The translations under genes were made by a program, and so were the position numbers. A stretch of DNA of 64,000 nt, from positions 475,099 to 539,098 of the forward strand of contig CAZYUH010000001.1 in the NCBI GenBank assembly GCA_964650645.1. Reading direction: 5' to 3'. This document shows positions 3,251 through 53,383 of the stretch, piece by piece (position 1 is the stretch's first letter; every line of letters begins with the position of its first letter). Source of the stretch: an uncultured Candidatus Saccharibacteria bacterium (GTDB lineage: Bacteria; Patescibacteriota; Minisyncoccia; Phycocordibacterales; SBAW01). The notes beneath the pieces are model-generated. The model ran no database searches. It was not told the DNA's origin and saw only the letters and a list, made by a program, of their open reading frames with translations.

Positions 3251-5032
3251 ATGAAAGTATCCCGCAATTGGCTCCAGAAATTCTTCGATGAACCGCTGCC
3301 CGACGCGCAGGCGCTGTCCGATGCGCTCACGTTCCACGTATTCGAGATAGACGGGATAGAAAAGCGCGGCGACGACGACATTCTCGACGTCAAGGTAACG
3401 GCCAACCGCGGGCACGACTGCCTGTGCCACCGCGGAATCGCCAAGGAGCTCTCGGCCATCCTCAGGCTGCCTCTCAAGGACGACCCGTTCGCGCTGCAGT
3501 TCGACATGTCGAAGAAGGCGGAAGCGGTGACCCTCAGCATAGAAGATCCGGCGCTGTGCCGCCGCTACATTGCCGGGCATTTCACCGGCGTGAAGGTGGG
3601 CCCGAGTCCCGCGTGGCTCTCGCAGGCGCTCGAGGCGATGGGCCAGCGAAGCGTCAACAACGTGGTGGACATGACCAATCTCGTGATGTTCAACACGGGC
3701 CAGCCGCTGCACGCGTTCGACGCCAAGCGCCTCGGCTCTCTAAATATCGGCGTGCGCGCCGCGCGCGAGGGTGAATCGCTTGAAGCTTTGGATAAAAAGA
3801 CATACGAGCTTAATTCTTCGCAGCTGGTCATTGCCGCGGCCGGCAGGCCGGTGGGCATCGCGGGCGTCAAGGGCGGCGAGGCCGACAGGATAGACGAGAG
3901 CACGACAGATGTCATCATCGAGGCGGCGACCTTTGACGGCGTCGCCGTGCGCCGGGCGGCCCAGGCGCTCAAGCTGCGCACCGACGCCTCGAGCAGGTTC
4001 GAGCAGGGACTAAGCCCGTACCTGGCCGAGGTCGGCATGCGCCAGATGGCCAAGCTGCTCGTGGATCTTGCCGGCGCTACGTGCGAGGGCTTCGTCGATA
4101 TGTATCCCGATCCGCAGAAGCAGGCGTACGTCGCGGTCACGGTCGAGAAGATAAACGCGGTGCTGGGCACGGCGCTTACCGGCGCGGATATTGCGGACGC
4201 GTTCGCGCGCCTGGGCTTTGCATACAAGGAAGAAGACGGCGTGTTCGAGGTCCAGCCGCCGCCCGAGCGCCTCGATATAACGATCGCCGAAGACCTTATA
4301 GAAGAAGTGGCGCGCATCGTCGGCTACGACAAGATTCCGGCAATCCCGCTGCCTGCGCCCGCCGCGGCGCCGGAAATAAGCAAGAACTTTTACGCGGCGG
4401 AAAAGGCCCGCGAGGAGTGGACGGCCAAGGGCTACAGCGAGGTGTTCACGTCCGTGTTCGCCGACCGCGGCGAGCGCGTCGTGCTCAACAAGGTGGACGG
4501 CGTGCGCCCGTACTTGCGCGACTCGCTCATCCCGGGGCTTACCGCCGCGCTCGCAAAAAACAAGCCCAACCGCGACCTCCTGGGCCTTAAGGAAATAAGG
4601 CTGTTTGAAATCGGCACGGTCTGGAAGGGTGGCAAGGAAGCCGTGATGCTCGGCACGGTGAGCGAGAAGGAGAAAGCGGCCGAGGTGCCGCTGGTCGGGG
4701 CCGAAACCCCCGAAGCGTACGACGACCTCCCGCTCTCGCAGGCGGCGCGCTACAGCGCCTTCTCGAAGTACCCCTGCATCGTGCGCGACATCGCCGTGTG
4801 GGTCCCGCCCGACACCAGCGCCGAGGCGTTCAAAGAGAACGTGCGGGCCGAGGCGGGCGAATTGCTTCAAAATATATTCCTGTTCGACACGTTTTCAAAA
4901 GAGGGGAGGGTGTCGCTCGCGCTGCGCCTGGTGTTCCAGTCGTTCGAGCGCACGCTCACCGAGGCAGAGGCGAATGCCGCGATGGAGAGGGTCGCGTCAA
5001 AGCTCAGGGCGCAGGGTTTCGAAATACGATAA
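3251..5032 (+). CDS. pheT: phenylalanine--tRNA ligase beta subunit (short, 593 aa)
   Basis: Starts MKVSRNWLQKFFDEPLP, 4 nt after the pheS stop; B3/4 and B5 region similarity; short C-terminus. Confidence 0.88.
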   Translation: MKVSRNWLQKFFDEPLPDAQALSDALTFHVFEIDGIEKRGDDDILDVKVTANRGHDCLCHRGIAKELSAILRLPLKDDPFALQFDMSKKAEAVTLSIEDPALCRRYIAGHFTGVKVGPSPAWLSQALEAMGQRSVNNVVDMTNLVMFNTGQPLHAFDAKRLGSLNIGVRAAREGESLEALDKKTYELNSSQLVIAAAGRPVGIAGVKGGEADRIDESTTDVIIEAATFDGVAVRRAAQALKLRTDASSRFEQGLSPYLAEVGMRQMAKLLVDLAGATCEGFVDMYPDPQKQAYVAVTVEKINAVLGTALTGADIADAFARLGFAYKEEDGVFEVQPPPERLDITIAEDLIEEVARIVGYDKIPAIPLPAPAAAPEISKNFYAAEKAREEWTAKGYSEVFTSVFADRGERVVLNKVDGVRPYLRDSLIPGLTAALAKNKPNRDLLGLKEIRLFEIGTVWKGGKEAVMLGTVSEKEKAAEVPLVGAETPEAYDDLPLSQAARYSAFSKYPCIVRDIAVWVPPDTSAEAFKENVRAEAGELLQNIFLFDTFSKEGRVSLALRLVFQSFERTLTEAEANAAMERVASKLRAQGFEIR

Positions 5033-9695: not shown

Positions 9696-10292
9696 ATGCG
9701 CGCCCTCGCTTTCGCCGCCACCTTCATATGCTTCTTCTTCATGACCTACGCCTTTCTGGGGCTGGTCGACGCCCTGCCTAATCCGCCGGAGTCTGCTGAC
9801 ACCGCGTCGCGCGAGCCTGCCAGCGCGCCGGAGCCTGTCGCGCAGGATGCGCGCGAATTGCCGGTGCGCGTCGTGGTAAAGGACGCGGGCATAGACTCCA
9901 AGGTGCTCAACCCGGCCTCGACCGACCTCGATACGCTTAACGCCGCAGTGGACGAGGCGGCGATGCGCTGGCCCACCTCGGGCCTGCTTGGCCAGAACGG
10001 CACCGTGGCGCTCTTCGGCCACTCGTCGCATTTGCCGGTGGTCTACAACCAGGCGTACAAGACGTTCAACGGGATAGAGCACCTCAAGAAGGGCCAGATC
10101 GTGAGCGTCTATTCGGGCACGGCCGAATACCGCTACGCGGTTACGGGCGTGCGCGTCGCCAGCGCCGAGGAGGACGTCGTCGAGCTTCCGTCCGACGGGA
10201 AGCACCTCGTGCTCATCACCTGCGACAATTTCGGCAGCAAGTCCGACCGCTATGTCGTGACCGCGGATTTCCAGGGCGCGTACGCCCTTTAG
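9696..10292 (+). CDS. sortase-family transpeptidase
   Basis: N-terminal TM; catalytic-triad context ALFGHSS (His), LVLITCDNF (TLxTC Cys), downstream Arg (DRYVVTA); divergent from the CARDB gene. Confidence 0.7.
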   Translation: MRALAFAATFICFFFMTYAFLGLVDALPNPPESADTASREPASAPEPVAQDARELPVRVVVKDAGIDSKVLNPASTDLDTLNAAVDEAAMRWPTSGLLGQNGTVALFGHSSHLPVVYNQAYKTFNGIEHLKKGQIVSVYSGTAEYRYAVTGVRVASAEEDVVELPSDGKHLVLITCDNFGSKSDRYVVTADFQGAYAL

Positions 10293-29978: not shown

Positions 29979-30255
29979 GAATAGCGAAACCAACGGGCAG
30001 GCCGCGGGGGCCATGAGTGAGTATCGAGTGGGGGTTTCGATACAACTAAAGAGGTGTGGATACTTTCACCTAAAGCTTCATAAGGAAGCAGGGGAGCCCT
30101 TTGGGCGACCCGGATTTTTCGTGTTTTGGCTGTGTGCATAAGTCAGTTGACTCCTAAGCATTTGTGCGAATAGCCATTGCCAGGAAAGAGAGAGGTGGGT
30201 GCGTCGGGCGCAGGTGCGGGTCCCTTTATCAACGTCCCTTCATCTTACAATCATC

Positions 30256-37107
<6,852 letters not shown>

Positions 37108-37805: not shown

Positions 37806-37988
37806 ATGAATCTCCTGTTGTGAAAGAACCGCGCTGGTACGAAAAGCTCCGGCTTTCGTCCAGCCGGAGTCCTTCAATACTGAGCGTGAGGAGATGTATT
37901 AAATGACTGCGCTTGGACGAATTGCACGGGCAAGGGCCCCCGAGATGGAGGTCCATGCATGCTTATTCATCTGTGCGCAGCGATTCTG

Positions 37989-38017
37989 CATATTCCACAT
38001 ATATCCTGCAAATGCAT
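37989..38017 (-). promoter_or_regulatory. minus-strand promoter TTGACA-17-TATATG with an about 175-nt structured leader before the GNAT gene
   Basis: + strand catata (37989-37994) and tgtcaa (38012-38017); leader contains a GC hairpin + TTTTCG (37836-37870). Confidence 0.45.
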
Positions 38018-38044
38018 TCCTGTCAATATAAAGAAAAAAGCCGC

Positions 38045-38068
38045 CTCCGTAAGGAGTGCGGCCTTTTC
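38045..38068 (-). terminator. terminator (GCCGC-loop-GCGGC, T-tract on minus strand)
   Basis: Downstream of the 31-aa peptide gene. Confidence 0.5.
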
Positions 38069-38084
38069 GATGCGCCCCGGCTTT

Positions 38085-38180
38085 CTAGAAGAAGTCGAAG
38101 CTGACCAGTGTGGAGCAGAAAAGGATAGCGCCGAAGAAGAAAGGAGAGACGAAGACGGTGAGCGCGACGGTCTTGAACAT
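38085..38180 (-). CDS. 31-aa hydrophobic peptide (MFKTVALTVFVSPFFFGAILFCSTLVSFDFF)
   Basis: ATG 38180 with GGAGG 7 nt upstream; consensus promoter 38211-38239; terminator 38045-38068; below the track's length cut-off. Confidence 0.45.
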   Translation of the reverse strand: MFKTVALTVFVSPFFFGAILFCSTLVSFDFF

Positions 38181-38210
38181 CGAAACCTCCTGAATGAACT
38201 GTATAGATTA

Positions 38211-38239
38211 ATTATACACCCAAATAGTATACTTGTCAA
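38211..38239 (-). promoter_or_regulatory. consensus minus-strand promoter TTGACA-17-TATAAT
   Basis: + strand attata 38211-38216 and tgtcaa 38234-38239. Confidence 0.65.
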
Positions 38240-38319
38240 GTATGTTGGGTGTGGGGTAAAAAAGCTTGCAGGACACAAGAAAAGCGCCGCTCCCGAAGGA
38301 TGCGGCGCTTGTGTATGGG

Positions 38320-38547
38320 TTATGGGTGTTTTATTAAGGCTATCACTGTCCCAAAACAAGCTATACCTATTAGAACCAGAATTACATACTCCACTAGTTT
38401 CCTCCTGGTATTGGCGGGCGTCTCCCGTTCCTTCTCGTCGGGCTCTTCAGCCAGGAGCCTTTTACAGAAAGGACACTGTGCTTTGTCTTTTCCTCCTCTT
38501 GCTCCTTTTATGAGCAGTCCGCAATGGGGGCATGCAACGGTCTTCAT
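38320..38547 (-). CDS. small zinc-ribbon (CPHC...CPFC) protein with C-terminal TM helix (75 aa)
   Basis: ATG overlaps the stop of the upstream gene (ATGA at 38544-38547); terminator hairpin 38280-38306 downstream. Confidence 0.55.
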   Translation of the reverse strand: MKTVACPHCGLLIKGARGGKDKAQCPFCKRLLAEEPDEKERETPANTRRKLVEYVILVLIGIACFGTVIALIKHP

Positions 38548-38732
38548 TCTTCTCTCCGTCCTGTGCCGTCATTCTCCGGGCGCTTCTCTATGAGGTGGAA
38601 TATTATGCCGGCGCCCGCTAAGATGCCGGCAACCTCTCCGCCGGATCCCAACAGGGAGCGCCCTGCGAGCGCAAGCAGCGCCATTAGGGCGAACATGAGG
38701 ATGCTCACCTTCCTGTAATGCTTGGCGGGCAT
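38544..38732 (-). CDS. small membrane protein (62 aa)
   Basis: ATG 38732 preceded by GAGGAGGAATAGGAG, which is made up of the EEE* codons of the upstream gene (translational coupling). Confidence 0.5.
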   Translation of the reverse strand: MPAKHYRKVSILMFALMALLALAGRSLLGSGGEVAGILAGAGIIFHLIEKRPENDGTGRREE

Positions 38733-38737
38733 CTCCT

Positions 38738-38849
38738 ATTCCTCCTCGTCGGGTTCGTCCATGAGCGGCTTGAGGGGCTTGCCGCAGTGCGGGCACTCGT
38801 AGTCGTCTTCATCCACTACGCCATCGCATTCATCGCAATACTCATCCAA
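38738..38849 (-). CDS. tiny acidic zinc-ribbon protein (CDEC...CPHC; 37 aa from the TTG start, 48 aa if ATG 38882)
   Basis: Promoter TTGACA-17-TATTTG (38886-38914, minus) ends 3 nt before ATG 38882. A TTG at 38849 with upstream AAAGAAAGGGA fits better as the start. Confidence 0.35.
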
Positions 38850-38932
38850 CGGGAATCCCTTTCTTTTCCAATGAGCCTGCATACACAAATACGCTTAAAT
38901 AAAGGTCATGTCAAGTGGTATACTATGGCTAC

Positions 38933-40576
38933 ATGGATACCGAGGTGCAGCAGGTGAAGGACCGCGTCAACATCGCCGAGGTGGTGGGGCAGTACGTGCA
39001 GCTGAGGCGCGCGGGGCGCAACTTCTCGGGCCGCTGCCCGTTCCACAACGAGCGCACGCCTTCCTTTATGGTGTCTCCCGAGCGCGGCACCTACATATGC
39101 TTCGGGTGCGGCGAGAAGGGCGACGTGTTCAGCTTCCTCCAGAAGATGGACGGCACCGACTTCCCGACGGTCCTCAAGCAGCTGGCAGAGAAGGCGGGCG
39201 TCACGCTCAAGCCCCGCGCGCGCGACCCGCGCGCCGCAGAGGCGCGCGAGCAGGAGAAGGAGAGGGAAGAGAGGCTCCGCGAGGCCTGCGAAGAGGCGGT
39301 GGCGTTCTATGAGGCGGAGCTTGCGAAGCGCGCCGACGTCCTGGAGTATCTGAAGGCGCGCGGCGTGACGCAAGAAAGCGCCAAGTCGTGGCGGCTGGGC
39401 TACGCGCCCGCCGCGTGGGAGGCGCTGTCGAAGCATCTCGTCGCGAAGGGGTTCGGGCACCCCGATATCGTCGAGGCGGGCTTCGCCGTGCGCTCGGAAA
39501 AGCGGCCGGGCGAGATATTCGACCGCTTCCGCGGGCGCATCATCTTCCCCATATTCGACGCGGGCGGCGCGCCCATTGCCGTGTCGGGCCGGTTCTATGA
39601 GAAGATTCCGGGGCAGTCGGACGGCGCGGAGCCCGCGAAATACGTGAATTCGCCCGAGACGGCGCTGTTCAGGAAGTCCAGGGTCCTGTACGGGTTCGAC
39701 CGCGCGCGCGCGGCTATTCGCCGCGCCGACTGCATCCTCTTAGTAGAGGGCCAGTTCGACCTCGTCATGGCCCACCAGTCGGGCCTGCCGTTCGCCGTGG
39801 CGCTCTCCGGCACGGCGCTTACGCAGGAACACCTTGCCCTTCTCGGGCGCCTTTCCAAGCGGCTCGTGCTCGCGCTCGATGCCGACGCGGCAGGCCTGCG
39901 CTCGGGGCTCAAGTCGGCGCTCATGGCCATGCAGGCGGGCTTCGACGTGAAAGTGCCCGCGTTCGCGCCCGGGAAGGATCCGGCCGACGTCGCGCGCGAC
40001 AACCCCGAGCTCCTCAAGGCGGCGGTGCGCACCTCGGCGACCGCCATAGAGTTCTTCATGGACGCCCTGCGCCCCGCGGCACGGGACGCGCGCGCGTACC
40101 AGAAGGCGGTCGAGCTCCAGGTGTTGCCGCTCGTCGCGGCCGTCGAAAGCACCATTGAGCGCGAGCATTTCATACGCATCATCGCGCAGAAGCTCAGCGT
40201 GCCTGAGGCGGCGGTCCGCGACGAAGTCGCCAAGCGGCCGAGCCTGCCCGAGGAGGATTCACCGCTTCTTCACCAGCCGGACGCACAATTGGCATCTGAT
40301 CCGCTAGGGAGCTTGAGCCCGCTCGACAGGAAGGCCGCCATGCTCGTATTCAATTTCAGCCGCGATTCCGCGGAGCGCGGGCGGCTGGACGCCCTCGTGG
40401 GCGCCGACCGCGCGGCGCGCCTGGAGGCCGACCTTGCGGAGCAGGCCGAGGCCCTGCGGTTCAGGTTCGAGGCCGAGGTGGGGGAGCATACGACGCCTGA
40501 AGCCATAGCGGCGGACATGCTCGCCGACATCGAGCGCGTGGCGGCGCGCGAGCGCATCAAGCTGAGGTTCCTGTAG
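38933..40576 (+). CDS. dnaG: DNA primase
   Basis: Zinc finger CPFHNERTPSF...CFGCG, TOPRIM (LLVEGQFDLV...DADAAG); TATACT at 38919-38924 only 8 nt before the ATG, so leaderless. Confidence 0.9.
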   Translation: MDTEVQQVKDRVNIAEVVGQYVQLRRAGRNFSGRCPFHNERTPSFMVSPERGTYICFGCGEKGDVFSFLQKMDGTDFPTVLKQLAEKAGVTLKPRARDPRAAEAREQEKEREERLREACEEAVAFYEAELAKRADVLEYLKARGVTQESAKSWRLGYAPAAWEALSKHLVAKGFGHPDIVEAGFAVRSEKRPGEIFDRFRGRIIFPIFDAGGAPIAVSGRFYEKIPGQSDGAEPAKYVNSPETALFRKSRVLYGFDRARAAIRRADCILLVEGQFDLVMAHQSGLPFAVALSGTALTQEHLALLGRLSKRLVLALDADAAGLRSGLKSALMAMQAGFDVKVPAFAPGKDPADVARDNPELLKAAVRTSATAIEFFMDALRPAARDARAYQKAVELQVLPLVAAVESTIEREHFIRIIAQKLSVPEAAVRDEVAKRPSLPEEDSPLLHQPDAQLASDPLGSLSPLDRKAAMLVFNFSRDSAERGRLDALVGADRAARLEADLAEQAEALRFRFEAEVGEHTTPEAIAADMLADIERVAARERIKLRFL

Positions 40577-53069: not shown

Positions 53070-53098
53070 TTGACAAATAGTTTTATAGGGTGTATAAT
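53070..53098 (+). promoter_or_regulatory. consensus promoter TTGACA-17-TATAAT
   Basis: Drives the small membrane gene at 53153; lies in an AT-richer patch (52880-53140). Confidence 0.65.
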
Positions 53099-53152
53099 TA
53101 GTGTGAAGTGGGCAGATAGGCTGTTCACGTTTTTCCGATGGGGGTAATTAGA

Positions 53153-53383
53153 ATGTTCGTTTCATACTGCGCTTGCGTTCCAGTGCTTCTGTTCGCCGCG
53201 CTCAAGGCGTACTCCGTATTCCATTTCCATTTCGGCCTGAGCGTGCGGCAATCGCAGGCGATTGCGGTGCTGGCCTACCTGGCGGTCCTGTTCGCGGTAA
53301 ACGCGCTGGCGTGGTCGGTATACGGGAAGAAAGAAGCCGTGCCGAAGTATGAGCTCGTTAAGGATCTTCCTAAAAGTTCTTGA
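53153..53383 (+). CDS. small membrane protein (76 aa, 2 TM)
   Basis: ATG 53153; hydrophobic segments CACVPVLLFAALKAY and AIAVLAYLAVLFAVNALAW; double-hairpin terminator 53395-53445. Confidence 0.45.
   Translation: MFVSYCACVPVLLFAALKAYSVFHFHFGLSVRQSQAIAVLAYLAVLFAVNALAWSVYGKKEAVPKYELVKDLPKSS

What the first reader, a model, noticed from the sequence alone, without database searches (positions are those of the whole stretch)
38045..38240. Complete mini-gene for a 31-aa hydrophobic peptide: TTGACA-17-TATAAT promoter, GGAGG RBS, MFKTVALTVFVSPFFFGAILFCSTLVSFDFF, hairpin terminator
All expression signals are near-consensus, yet the ORF is far below normal annotation cut-offs. Short single-helix hydrophobic peptides with strong promoters are typical of type I toxins or small membrane regulators of the KdpF/AcrZ class. 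No obvious antisense RNA promoter was seen, but the opposite strand is noncoding.
Basis: seen in the sequence. Interest (0 to 1): 0.55.

Follow-up and report, generated by a model that had tools for sequence, protein, structure and literature searches.

The report
Tiny membrane-protein gene in CPR bacterium
This is a real, self-contained gene for a 31-residue single-helix membrane peptide in an uncultured Patescibacteria (CPR) bacterium; related species keep it, but it matches no known family and its partner and role are unknown.

Summary
On the minus strand there is a perfect TTGACA-17-TATAAT promoter, a GGAGG 5 nt before the ATG, a 31-codon ORF and a -22 kcal/mol hairpin followed by a T-run. 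This is one monocistronic unit, about 38239 to 38030.

It is a protein-coding gene rather than chance or an sRNA.
- GC3 is 0.84, against 0.38 and 0.34 at codon positions 1 and 2. All 9 Phe codons are TTC.
- Seven other Paceibacteria lineages (DnaG 74-84% identical where measured) carry the same unit between rpoBC and dnaG. Each encodes a 26-36 aa hydrophobic peptide with a mid-helix proline.
- dN/dS for the closest pair is 0.18.

No similarity was found to Pfam, NCBIfam, PADLOC, PHROGs, PDB or 1.8 billion representative proteins.

The Phe-leader reading is refuted: Phe richness is not conserved, and several orthologues have no downstream gene.

The type I toxin reading is disfavoured. No antisense promoter was found, the 5'UTR is only about 24 nt, the gene is single-copy, and it sits syntenically among housekeeping genes.

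Best reading: an abundant single-pass membrane micro-protein, probably an accessory or modulatory subunit of the KdpF/AcrZ class by analogy only.

It is a new family of a known kind, of moderate-to-low interest.

The parts
38234..38239 (-). -35 hexamer TTGACA (followed by a conserved A: TTGACAA)
   Evidence: It is invariant in all 8 orthologous units and in 4 further relatives where the slot holds another gene.
38211..38216 (-). -10 hexamer TATAAT, preceded by a conserved GGTG (38220-38217); the spacer is exactly 17 nt
   Evidence: Orthologues carry TATAAT, TATAGT, TACAAT or CATAAT at the same 17-nt spacing, while the spacer sequence varies.
38181..38204 (-). Predicted 5'UTR of about 24 nt (AUACAGUUCAUUCAGGAGGUUUCG), starting at the inferred TSS 38204 and containing the Shine-Dalgarno GGAGG (38190-38186)
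   Evidence: The TSS is inferred. A conserved block AUA.AG(G)UUCA begins 5-7 nt after the -10 in seven of the eight orthologues (L022 keeps only AUAG), while the nucleotides between the -10 and that block vary. A GGAGG-type SD lies 5-6 nt before the start codon in all 8.
38085..38180 (-). 31-codon ORF plus TAG stop: MFKTVALTVFVSPFFFGAILFCSTLVSFDFF, a single transmembrane helix
   Evidence: GC at codon positions 1/2/3 is 0.38/0.34/0.84, and 9 of 9 Phe codons are TTC, against 117 TTC: 1 TTT in rpoBC, dnaG and rpoD. dN/dS is 0.18 against the L020 orthologue. AF2 gives a helix over residues 2-30 with pLDDT 94. The identical peptide is called on 18 contigs of the same species.
38030..38068 (-). Intrinsic terminator: an 11+4-bp interrupted stem, a UUAC loop, then UUUUUUCUUU
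   Evidence: -22.4 kcal/mol. The left arm AAGGCCGCA is conserved in 6 of 8 orthologues, and all 8 have a hairpin plus T-run after the stop. In L063 they follow the co-transcribed 35-aa ORF.
38275..38306 (-). Terminator of the upstream gene (75-aa zinc-ribbon + TM protein, 38547-38320). It isolates the mini-gene as its own transcription unit.
   Evidence: -21.7 kcal/mol.
37998..38026 (-). Boundary feature, not part of the mini-gene: a second promoter-like site, TTGACA-17-TATATG, immediately after the terminator. It heads a structured leader of about 150 nt for the GNAT gene (37805-37164).
   Evidence: It is conserved in L011 as TTGACA-17-TATAGA.

Best explanation
The unit is an independent, monocistronic gene. 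A consensus sigma-70-type promoter fires from about 38204. The resulting mRNA of about 170 nt has a 24-nt leader with a strong Shine-Dalgarno sequence, is translated into a 31-residue peptide, and ends at an intrinsic terminator.

The peptide is one continuous hydrophobic helix, uncharged from T4 to F28, with a mid-helix proline. Lys3 lies at the N-terminus and Asp29 plus the free carboxylate at the C-terminus. By the positive-inside rule it should sit N-in/C-out in the cytoplasmic membrane. It is too short to emerge from the ribosome before termination, so insertion must be post-translational.

Its most likely role is as an abundant accessory or modulatory subunit that packs against a larger membrane protein or complex. 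That is the way KdpF, AcrZ and CydX work. The partner is not encoded next to it.

Shown: the signals, coding character, conservation, purifying selection and helical propensity. Inferred: the TSS, high expression, topology, and the accessory-subunit role.
For: 1. Signals. The promoter is a 12/12 match with 0.00 expected by chance in the window. GGAGG lies 5 nt from the ATG, and the terminator folds at -22.4 kcal/mol.

2. Coding signature. GC3 is 0.84 against 0.38 and 0.34 at positions 1 and 2, matching rpoBC, dnaG and rpoD (GC3 0.88-0.93). All 9 Phe codons are TTC.

3. Orthologues. The same promoter, 5'UTR, SD, short ORF and terminator lie between the rpoBC 3' end and the dnaG 5' end in L020, L017, L021, L011, L012, L022 and L063. 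DnaG identity is 74-84% for the six measured; it was not computed for L063. The ORFs encode 26-36 aa peptides with GRAVY 1.4-2.2 and T at codon position 2 of 0.47-0.59. Every one has a mid-helix Pro, and five of the seven share the motif (F/I/L)(F/I)Y-x-(T/I)-L-(V/I)-A; L020 and L063, like the window, carry C-S-(T/E)-L-(V/I)-(S/T)-F-D-F instead.

4. Selection on the peptide. Window against L020 gives pS 0.49, pN 0.13 and dN/dS 0.18, and the replacements are hydrophobic-for-hydrophobic: F10A, F14A, F15L, F21L, L7I, I19V. At most 0.9% of shuffles stay open and reach the observed hydrophobicity.

5. Structure. AF2 predicts one helix over residues 2-30 with pLDDT 94.4.

6. Independence of neighbours. 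The upstream gene has its own terminator. The downstream gene varies: GNAT in the window and L011, a membrane protein in L012, and nothing but the convergent rpoBC end in L017, L020, L021 and L022.

7. Copy number. The unit is single-copy in the 64-kb window, and the peptide is identical in 18 contigs of the species from many samples.
Against: - There is no expression data of any kind. The promoter, TSS and translation are inferred from sequence and comparative conservation only.
- No partner is identified. Nothing in the +/-10 kb around the gene, nor among the nine largest ORFs of the window that were scanned, is a P-type ATPase, RND pump or oxidase.
- The gene is not universal in the clade. 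Relatives with 65-84% DnaG identity have the same slot empty (L013, L144) or filled with other small genes (L014, L019, L023, L126, L145, L146). That is unusual for a core subunit and fits a dispensable or fast-evolving function.
- dN/dS in the more distant pairs is 0.39-0.70, although those alignments are near saturation.
- The SD may be partly occluded by the pyrimidine-rich ORF. P(unpaired) is 0.33 in the full transcript and 0.04-0.07 in the first 85 nt.
Confidence: 0.55

Rival explanations
1. Type I toxin-antitoxin toxin: a small hydrophobic membrane-depolarising peptide whose mRNA is normally silenced by an antisense RNA.
For: - Size, hydrophobicity and stand-alone transcription unit fit this class.
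- Distribution among close relatives is patchy and the sequence diverges quickly.
- The SD is predicted to be largely paired in the 5' 85 nt of the mRNA, with P(unpaired) 0.04-0.07.
Against: - No promoter-like site of 9/12 or better lies on the opposite strand at a conserved position in any of 8 orthologues. The best are 8/12 matches inside the AT-rich -10 to +1 region.
- The 5'UTR is only about 24-33 nt with no conserved sequestering structure. SD pairing partners differ between orthologues (P(unpaired) 0.09-0.45), and other GGAGG genes in the window span 0.01-0.78.
- The sense promoter is a perfect consensus, which would be lethal for an unopposed toxin.
- The unit is single-copy.
- It keeps a stable syntenic position among housekeeping genes across DnaG 74-84% identity.
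- No match was found to any Pfam type I toxin family, nor to PADLOC.
Confidence: 0.12
2. A fast-turnover, possibly dispensable or outward-acting micro-peptide. The strong promoter beside dnaG would be a conserved 'expression slot' whose cargo is exchanged between lineages. The peptide might act on another cell's membrane, or have only a weak or young function, rather than being a subunit of a housekeeping complex.
For: The same TTGACAA-N16-TATAAT promoter and 5'UTR beside dnaG drive different cargoes:
- unrelated 29-30 aa (L019) and 35 aa (L126; second cistron in L063) hydrophobic peptides;
- 62-aa and 78-aa soluble proteins (L145, L023).
The slot is absent altogether in L013 and L144.
Against: - The peptide has no signal peptide, no cleavage or export motif and no adjacent transporter.
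- It is uniformly hydrophobic rather than amphipathic like known membrane-lytic peptides.
- The closest pair shows clear purifying selection (dN/dS 0.18).
Confidence: 0.2
3. Noncoding sRNA, or a promoter serving a longer transcript, with a fortuitous ORF.
For: - A 31-codon open frame is not rare by itself: 33-66% of mononucleotide shuffles of the eight orthologous ORFs stay open.
- No protein homologues were detectable in 1.8 billion representatives beyond the peptide itself.
Against: - The strong three-base periodicity (GC3, and T at position 2) is conserved in all 8 orthologues.
- The SD-ATG spacing is conserved.
- dN/dS is 0.18.
- Hydrophobicity was reached in at most 0.9% of shuffles.
- The transcript as a whole is not unusually structured (z = -1.9).
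- No Rfam family reaches threshold.
- The terminator directly follows the stop codon, except in L063 where a second small ORF intervenes, and in four orthologues nothing lies downstream.
Confidence: 0.05
4. Phenylalanine-sensing leader peptide (attenuator) controlling a downstream gene.
For: - The peptide has 9 Phe in 31 residues including an FFF run, followed by a terminator hairpin.
- There is a weak Rfam Phe_leader match (RF01859, 19.4 bits, E = 1.4).
Against: - The Rfam score is far below the gathering threshold of 55 bits.
- Phe richness is not conserved. The L020 orthologue has F10A, F14A, F15L and F21L, and the FY.TLVA-type orthologues have only 2-3 Phe.
- The downstream gene is a GNAT with its own promoter in the window. 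It is a different gene in L012, and there is no gene at all in L017, L020, L021 and L022.
- pheT lies 33 kb away at 3251-5029.
Confidence: 0.02

Closest known systems
KdpF / AcrZ / CydX-type small single-pass accessory subunits of membrane complexes (also E. coli YohP, MgtS and similar; own knowledge)
   Same: A length of 26-49 aa, one transmembrane helix, no enzymatic capacity, and a likely N-in/C-out topology. The five FY.TLVA-type orthologues even have an aromatic-Tyr-x-x-Leu motif near the C-terminus that superficially recalls KdpF's YLVYAL.
   Different: - No sequence relation: Pfam, NCBIfam and PDB profile searches are empty.
- The gene is not in an operon with, or near, any pump, P-type ATPase or oxidase gene.
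- It is monocistronic with its own consensus promoter and terminator.
- It is restricted to a narrow Paceibacteria clade.
Type I toxins (Ibs, ShoB, TisB, Ldr, Fst, Hok, TxpA/BsrG)
   Same: A small hydrophobic helical peptide encoded by a stand-alone short transcript, often missed in annotation, with patchy phylogenetic distribution.
   Different: - No antisense or divergent sRNA promoter was found.
- The 5'UTR is very short.
- The sense promoter is a perfect consensus.
- The unit is single-copy.
- It is syntenic among housekeeping genes.
- No Pfam toxin family matches.
Phe leader peptides (pheL/pheM; Rfam RF01859)
   Same: A short ORF with consecutive Phe codons followed by a terminator.
   Different: The score is 19.4 bits against a threshold of 55. 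The Phe run is not conserved, no alternative antiterminator is evident, and orthologues have no regulated downstream gene.
Unannotated small-ORF families catalogued from metagenomes (e.g. Sberro et al. 2019, bioRxiv 10.1101/494179; GMSC, PMC11364881, both retrieved; their content was not read, so this characterisation is from own knowledge)
   Same: A conserved sORF of fewer than 50 aa, predicted transmembrane, with no known domain, recognisable by comparative genomics.
   Different: I did not check those catalogues for this specific family. Five of the eight members are below the 30-codon limit of standard gene callers, and those checked were not called. A profile search of 5.8 billion called proteins returned only the window peptide and the 36-aa L022 form.

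Membership tests
Bona fide protein-coding small ORF | Codon-position compositional periodicity like that of the genome's genes | tested here: met
   GC at positions 1/2/3 is 0.38/0.34/0.84, against GC3 of 0.88-0.93 in rpoBC, dnaG and rpoD. Phe codons are 9/9 TTC, against 117:1 in those genes. The periodicity is present in all 8 orthologues.
Bona fide protein-coding small ORF | ORF, start context and peptide properties conserved in other species under purifying selection | tested here: met
   Seven further lineages carry an SD 5-6 nt before the ATG and 26-36 hydrophobic codons. dN/dS is 0.18 for window against L020, and 0.39-0.70 for more distant pairs.
Bona fide protein-coding small ORF | Direct evidence of translation (Ribo-seq, mass spectrometry, tagging) | not testable with these tools
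   No expression data are accessible.
Type I toxin-antitoxin | Cis- or trans-encoded antisense RNA gene with its own promoter overlapping or adjacent to the toxin mRNA | tested here: not met
   There is no antisense promoter-like site of 9/12 or better at a conserved position in 8 orthologues. A consensus scan cannot exclude atypical promoters.
Type I toxin-antitoxin | Toxin mRNA kept translationally inert (long structured 5'UTR, conserved SD sequestration) | tested here: inconclusive
   The 5'UTR is about 24 nt. SD P(unpaired) is 0.33 in the full transcript and 0.04-0.07 in the 5' 85 nt. Orthologues give 0.09-0.45 with non-conserved partners, and the window background is 0.01-0.78.
Type I toxin-antitoxin | Sequence membership in a described toxin family (Hok, Ldr, Fst, TisB, Ibs, ShoB, TxpA and others in Pfam) | tested here: not met
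   There are no Pfam hits at E <= 10 for the 8 peptides apart from one stray NDUF_B4 hit at E = 0.29, and no PADLOC hits.
Type I toxin-antitoxin | Toxicity or membrane depolarisation on over-expression | not testable with these tools
   This needs an experiment.
KdpF (PF09604) | Profile match to KdpF | tested here: not met
   No hit to this family appeared among the Pfam and NCBIfam results, and no match to any PDB chain.
KdpF (PF09604) | Encoded in or next to kdpABC | tested here: not met
   Neighbours within +/-10 kb are RNR, TruB, HisRS, DsbA-like, RpoD, DnaG, GNAT, RpoBC, TrmD and NUDIX. Of the nine large ORFs scanned, seven are DnaE, RNR, RNase R, SMC-like, GH130, GyrB and PheT, and two have no Pfam hit.
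AcrZ / CydX-type pump or oxidase subunits | Profile match, and adjacency or co-occurrence with acrB- or cydAB-type genes | tested here: not met
   There is no Pfam, NCBIfam or PDB match, and no RND or cytochrome bd genes in the window. Genome-wide co-occurrence could not be tested.
Phe leader / attenuator (RF01859) | Covariance-model score at or above the gathering threshold | tested here: not met
   The score is 19.4 bits against 55, with E = 1.4, and there is no hit at gathering threshold.
Phe leader / attenuator (RF01859) | Conserved run of regulatory Phe codons and a regulated downstream gene | tested here: not met
   The FFF run is lost in L020 (ALF) and in the five FY.TLVA-type orthologues. 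There is no downstream gene in L017, L020, L021 or L022.

The most novel reading that the evidence does not exclude
The strong, sequence-conserved promoter and 5'UTR placed divergently beside dnaG may be a dedicated high-expression 'cassette slot' in this Paceibacteria clade. Into it, unrelated micro-protein genes are repeatedly swapped or born. At least three unrelated hydrophobic peptide families and three other small proteins were seen at the slot (the one in L146 behind a somewhat divergent promoter). The window's peptide would be one cargo: an extremely abundant membrane micro-protein tuned to the episymbiotic lifestyle, for example remodelling its own envelope or inserting into the host membrane, rather than a housekeeping subunit.
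Probability: 0.12. Interest if true: 0.65.

Novelty: new member of a known kind. Interest (0 to 1): 0.35.

Why it matters
CPR/Patescibacteria have tiny genomes, and a large share of their genes have no known function. A gene with the strongest possible expression signals, conserved across the lineages sampled and largely invisible to standard gene callers, is a candidate for one of the most abundant membrane components of these cells.

Five of the eight family members are shorter than 30 codons. A profile search of 5.8 billion called proteins returned only two forms.

The gene gives a compact, testable target for metatranscriptomic or proteomic detection and for pull-downs. It also illustrates how comparative promoter, SD and terminator anatomy can recover sub-30-codon genes.

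It does not by itself overturn anything. Small single-pass membrane proteins are a well-known class.

Tried and rejected
Homology searches that found nothing
- phmmer of the peptide against 1.84 billion representative proteins returned only itself.
- The search for homologous proteins refuses queries shorter than 40 aa. A profile headed by the 41-aa over-called L011 ORF found only the window peptide and the L022 peptide. The cluster look-up gave no names.
- Pfam, NCBIfam, PADLOC, PHROGs and PDB sequence searches on all 8 peptides gave nothing meaningful.

Searches for related loci
Most hits were unrelated promoters, and only L063 (a new member) and L126 (another peptide at the same slot) were useful.
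- tblastn of the peptide against the more distant relatives L013 and L014 found nothing. There rpoBC and dnaG are adjacent or separated by other genes.
- The P0007 contig has a called 38-aa gene at exactly the same distance upstream of its GNAT gene, but no DNA could be fetched.
- In L146 the contig ends just where the mini-gene would begin.

Hypotheses tested
- The Phe-leader idea was rejected.
- An antisense promoter search was negative.
- The SD-sequestration analysis was ambiguous, so I do not use it either way.

Other
- A literature search for small proteins in Patescibacteria found only general small-ORF papers.

Full report
WHAT IS THERE

The feature lies on the minus strand. Reading 5' to 3':
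- -35 TTGACA at 38239-38234, a 17-nt spacer, and -10 TATAAT at 38216-38211;
- about 24 nt of leader containing GGAGG at 38190-38186;
- ATG at 38180, 31 sense codons and a TAG stop at 38087-38085;
- 16 nt later, an interrupted GC-rich hairpin at about 38068-38040 (-22.4 kcal/mol), followed by UUUUUUCUUU to 38030.

An exact TTGACA-N17-TATAAT occurs only twice in the window, with 0.00 expected in shuffles. The other copy, at 53070 (+), drives a 76-81 aa two-helix membrane protein. This is the organism's strongest promoter type, not a chance match.

The upstream gene on the same strand is a 75-aa zinc-ribbon + TM protein (38547-38320). It has its own terminator at 38306-38275. Immediately after the mini-gene's terminator comes a second promoter-like site at 38026-37998. 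The mini-gene is therefore an isolated monocistronic unit.

The 184-codon ORF on the opposite strand (37959-38513) has GC3 of 0.42 and is not coding.

ORGANISM AND CONTEXT

The window has about 63% GC. Around the mini-gene it encodes a fused rpoBC (2302 aa), a GNAT acetyltransferase, three tiny zinc-ribbon or TM genes, dnaG and rpoD.

The DnaG relatives are MAGs labelled Paceibacterota, Adlerbacteria, Kaiserbacteria, Nomurabacteria and, in two cases, 'Saccharibacteria'. The organism is therefore a CPR/Patescibacteria bacterium of the Paceibacteria group.

The identical peptide is called on 18 contigs from many samples. All belong to the same species: 98.7-100% nucleotide identity, with the unit differing by one spacer SNP.

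IS IT A GENE?

Four independent lines say yes.

1. Composition. GC at codon positions 1/2/3 is 0.38/0.34/0.84, the same third-position bias as rpoBC, dnaG and rpoD (0.88-0.93). All nine Phe codons are TTC, matching the 117:1 preference in those three genes.

2. Orthologues. I used DnaG as an anchor, which does not depend on the peptide, and fetched the rpoBC-dnaG interval from relatives. A metagenome promoter-pattern scan added L063. Seven lineages carry the same unit in the same place and orientation:

| Locus | DnaG identity | Peptide |
|---|---|---|
| L020 | 84% | MFKTVAITVAVSPALFAAVLLCSTLVSFDFIPF |
| L063 | not computed | MTKFIIFSSPALFILSILCSELITFDFF |
| L017 | 82% | MKTILFATTLSILLAPAMLFYLTLIA |
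| L021 | 79% | MKSLLIAFVLAVPAVPAAFIYATLVA |
| L011 | 79% | MTSILIALALAVPSIPAVFFYITLVA |
| L012 | 79% | MFGTVVTAIVLAPPTVLVIFIYVTLVA |
| L022 | 74% | MATVARIADMTMKTALWGAVGFGSFPIVLFYVILVA |

- In all of them the -35 hexamer is invariant and the spacer length is 17. The -10 is TATAAT, TATAGT, TACAAT or CATAAT.
- In seven of the eight a conserved block AUA.AG(G)UUCA starts 5-7 nt after the -10, which marks the likely TSS; L022 keeps only AUAG.
- A GGAGG-type SD sits 5-6 nt before the ATG.
- A hairpin plus T-run follows the stop. In L063 a second small ORF intervenes.

3. Selection. Window against L020 gives pS 0.49, pN 0.13 and dN/dS 0.18. Every replacement is hydrophobic-for-hydrophobic. More distant pairs give 0.39-0.70 on near-saturated, gap-uncertain alignments.

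4. Peptide properties. T at codon position 2 is 0.47-0.59 in all eight. GRAVY is 1.4-2.2, reached by at most 0.9% of shuffles that stay open. Each peptide has a mid-helix proline, and five of the seven orthologues share the motif aromatic-Tyr-x-(T/I)-L-(V/I)-A; L020 and L063, like the window, carry C-S-(T/E)-L-(V/I)-(S/T)-F-D-F. AlphaFold2 predicts a single helix over residues 2-30 with pLDDT 94.4.

The transcript itself is not unusually structured (z = -1.9), and no Rfam family reaches threshold. An sRNA with an accidental ORF is therefore unlikely.

WHAT IT IS NOT

Phe leader. The nine Phe, the FFF run and the hairpin produce a weak Rfam Phe_leader hit: 19.4 bits against a threshold of 55, E = 1.4. 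Three facts refute an attenuator.
- The Phe residues are replaced by Ala or Leu in the closest orthologue, and the FY.TLVA-type orthologues have only 2-3 Phe.
- Four orthologues (L017, L020, L021, L022) have nothing downstream except the convergent rpoBC end.
- pheT is 33 kb away.

Type I toxin. Size and hydrophobicity fit, but most other features do not.
- There is no antisense promoter-like site of 9/12 or better at a conserved position in any orthologue.
- The 5'UTR is about 24 nt.
- The sense promoter is a perfect consensus.
- The unit is single-copy in the window.
- It sits stably between housekeeping genes across lineages whose DnaG is 74-84% identical to the window's.
- No Pfam toxin family or PADLOC model matches.

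One caveat applies. The SD can pair with the pyrimidine-rich codons 11-14, giving P(unpaired) of 0.04-0.07 in the first 85 nt and 0.33 in the full transcript. The partners are not conserved among orthologues (0.09-0.45), and other GGAGG-preceded ORFs in the window range from 0.01 to 0.78. I treat this as uninformative.

Known small subunits. KdpF, AcrZ, CydX and similar proteins show no profile or PDB similarity to the peptide. No cognate pump, ATPase or oxidase gene lies within +/-10 kb or among the nine large ORFs scanned.

MOST LIKELY MECHANISM

Shown: a stand-alone, comparatively conserved expression unit encoding a peptide that is under purifying selection and forms one hydrophobic helix.

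Inferred:
- transcription from about 38204 by the RpoD holoenzyme at a high constitutive rate;
- translation from an SD-led 24-nt leader;
- post-translational membrane insertion, because the peptide is no longer than the ribosomal tunnel (own knowledge of small-membrane-protein biogenesis, e.g. YohP and KdpF);
- N-in/C-out topology, from Lys3 against Asp29 plus the C-terminal carboxylate under the positive-inside rule;
- action by packing, through its proline-kinked helix, against a larger membrane protein as an accessory or modulatory subunit.

I put about 0.9 on 'real translated small membrane protein' and about 0.55 on the accessory-subunit role.

The main reservation is the locus behaviour. 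In other relatives the same promoter beside dnaG drives different cargoes.
- L019 has an unrelated 29-30 aa peptide.
- L126 has an unrelated 35-aa peptide, MWI..KRPIIWIPAM.., which is co-transcribed after the family peptide in L063.
- L145 and L023 have 62-aa and 78-aa soluble proteins.
- L146 has a 54-aa signal-anchor protein behind a somewhat divergent TTGACA-17-CATAAT promoter.
- L013 and L144 lack the slot.

This turnover fits a dispensable, fast-evolving function better than a core subunit. It underlies my second-ranked rival and the 'novel case'.

NOVELTY AND SCORE

The family has no detectable relatives and no name. The window peptide is in NCBI, ENA and Logan gene calls, unnamed. Five of the eight members fall below the 30-codon limit of standard gene callers, and those checked were not called.

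It is a new family of a well-known kind: bacterial single-pass micro-proteins. A specialist would find it plausible and unsurprising. Its value is as a clean, testable example of a probably very abundant micro-protein in CPR bacteria. Interest 0.35.

Noticed in passing
window 38026-37806 (minus strand); L011 5425-5215: A strongly structured noncoding leader or sRNA lies between the mini-gene terminator and the GNAT (Acetyltransf_3) gene. It has a promoter-like TTGACA-17-TATATG, then about 150 nt forming a long irregular hairpin, a second hairpin and a terminator-like hairpin (37869-37847). MFE is -77 kcal/mol with z = -5.25, and 0 of 200 shuffles fold as well. It is conserved in L011 with the reading frame not kept, and with 3-4 compensatory pairs in a two-sequence alignment. 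There is no Rfam match. It is a candidate riboswitch, attenuator or sRNA.
   Followed up: partly
window 30199-37107 (+): rpoB and rpoC are fused into a single 2302-codon ORF. The same fusion appears in relatives: 2283 aa in L001, 2285 aa in L014 and L021, and 2252 aa on the P0007 contig.
   Followed up: no
window 53070-53383 (+): This is the only other perfect TTGACA-17-TATAAT in the window, with the same TTGACAA...GGGTGTATAAT flavour. It drives a 76-81 aa two-helix membrane protein with no Pfam hit, followed by a hairpin terminator.
   Followed up: partly
L063 425-532 (+); L126 2036-2143 (+): A second, unrelated 35-aa hydrophobic peptide family, MWI(V/I)(F/L)D(L/I)IAF..KRPIIWIPAM..G.L.W.SL.H, is 69% identical between the two loci. 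In L063 it is co-transcribed after the family peptide. In L126 it is alone behind the same dnaG-adjacent promoter.
   Followed up: partly
L019 3912-3823, L023 2496-2260, L145 2397-2209, L146 ~276-112, L013 ~9935-10000, L144 ~2180-2260: The promoter slot beside dnaG is variable among relatives. It holds other small genes (a 29-30 aa peptide, 78-aa and 62-aa soluble proteins, a 54-aa signal-anchor protein), or rpoBC and dnaG abut with only a shared terminator.
   Followed up: partly
window 38735-38888, 38544-38732, 38320-38547 (minus strand): A cluster of three tiny genes lies upstream of the mini-gene on the same strand: a 48-aa acidic zinc-ribbon protein, a 62-aa TM protein and a 75-aa zinc-ribbon + TM-anchor protein. 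Zinc-ribbon homologues recur upstream of the peptide slot in L017, L020 and L146. Their function is unknown.
   Followed up: no
window 38915-38935 (+) and orthologous dnaG starts: dnaG probably starts at the ATG for Met7 (38933), where all relatives begin (MDTEVQQ...). A TATACT/TAGAAT-like -10 lies only about 10 nt upstream, which suggests a leaderless or near-leaderless dnaG mRNA.
   Followed up: no
window 3251-5029 (+): pheT (phenylalanyl-tRNA synthetase beta subunit) is in the window, 33 kb from the Phe-rich peptide. No link was found.
   Followed up: yes
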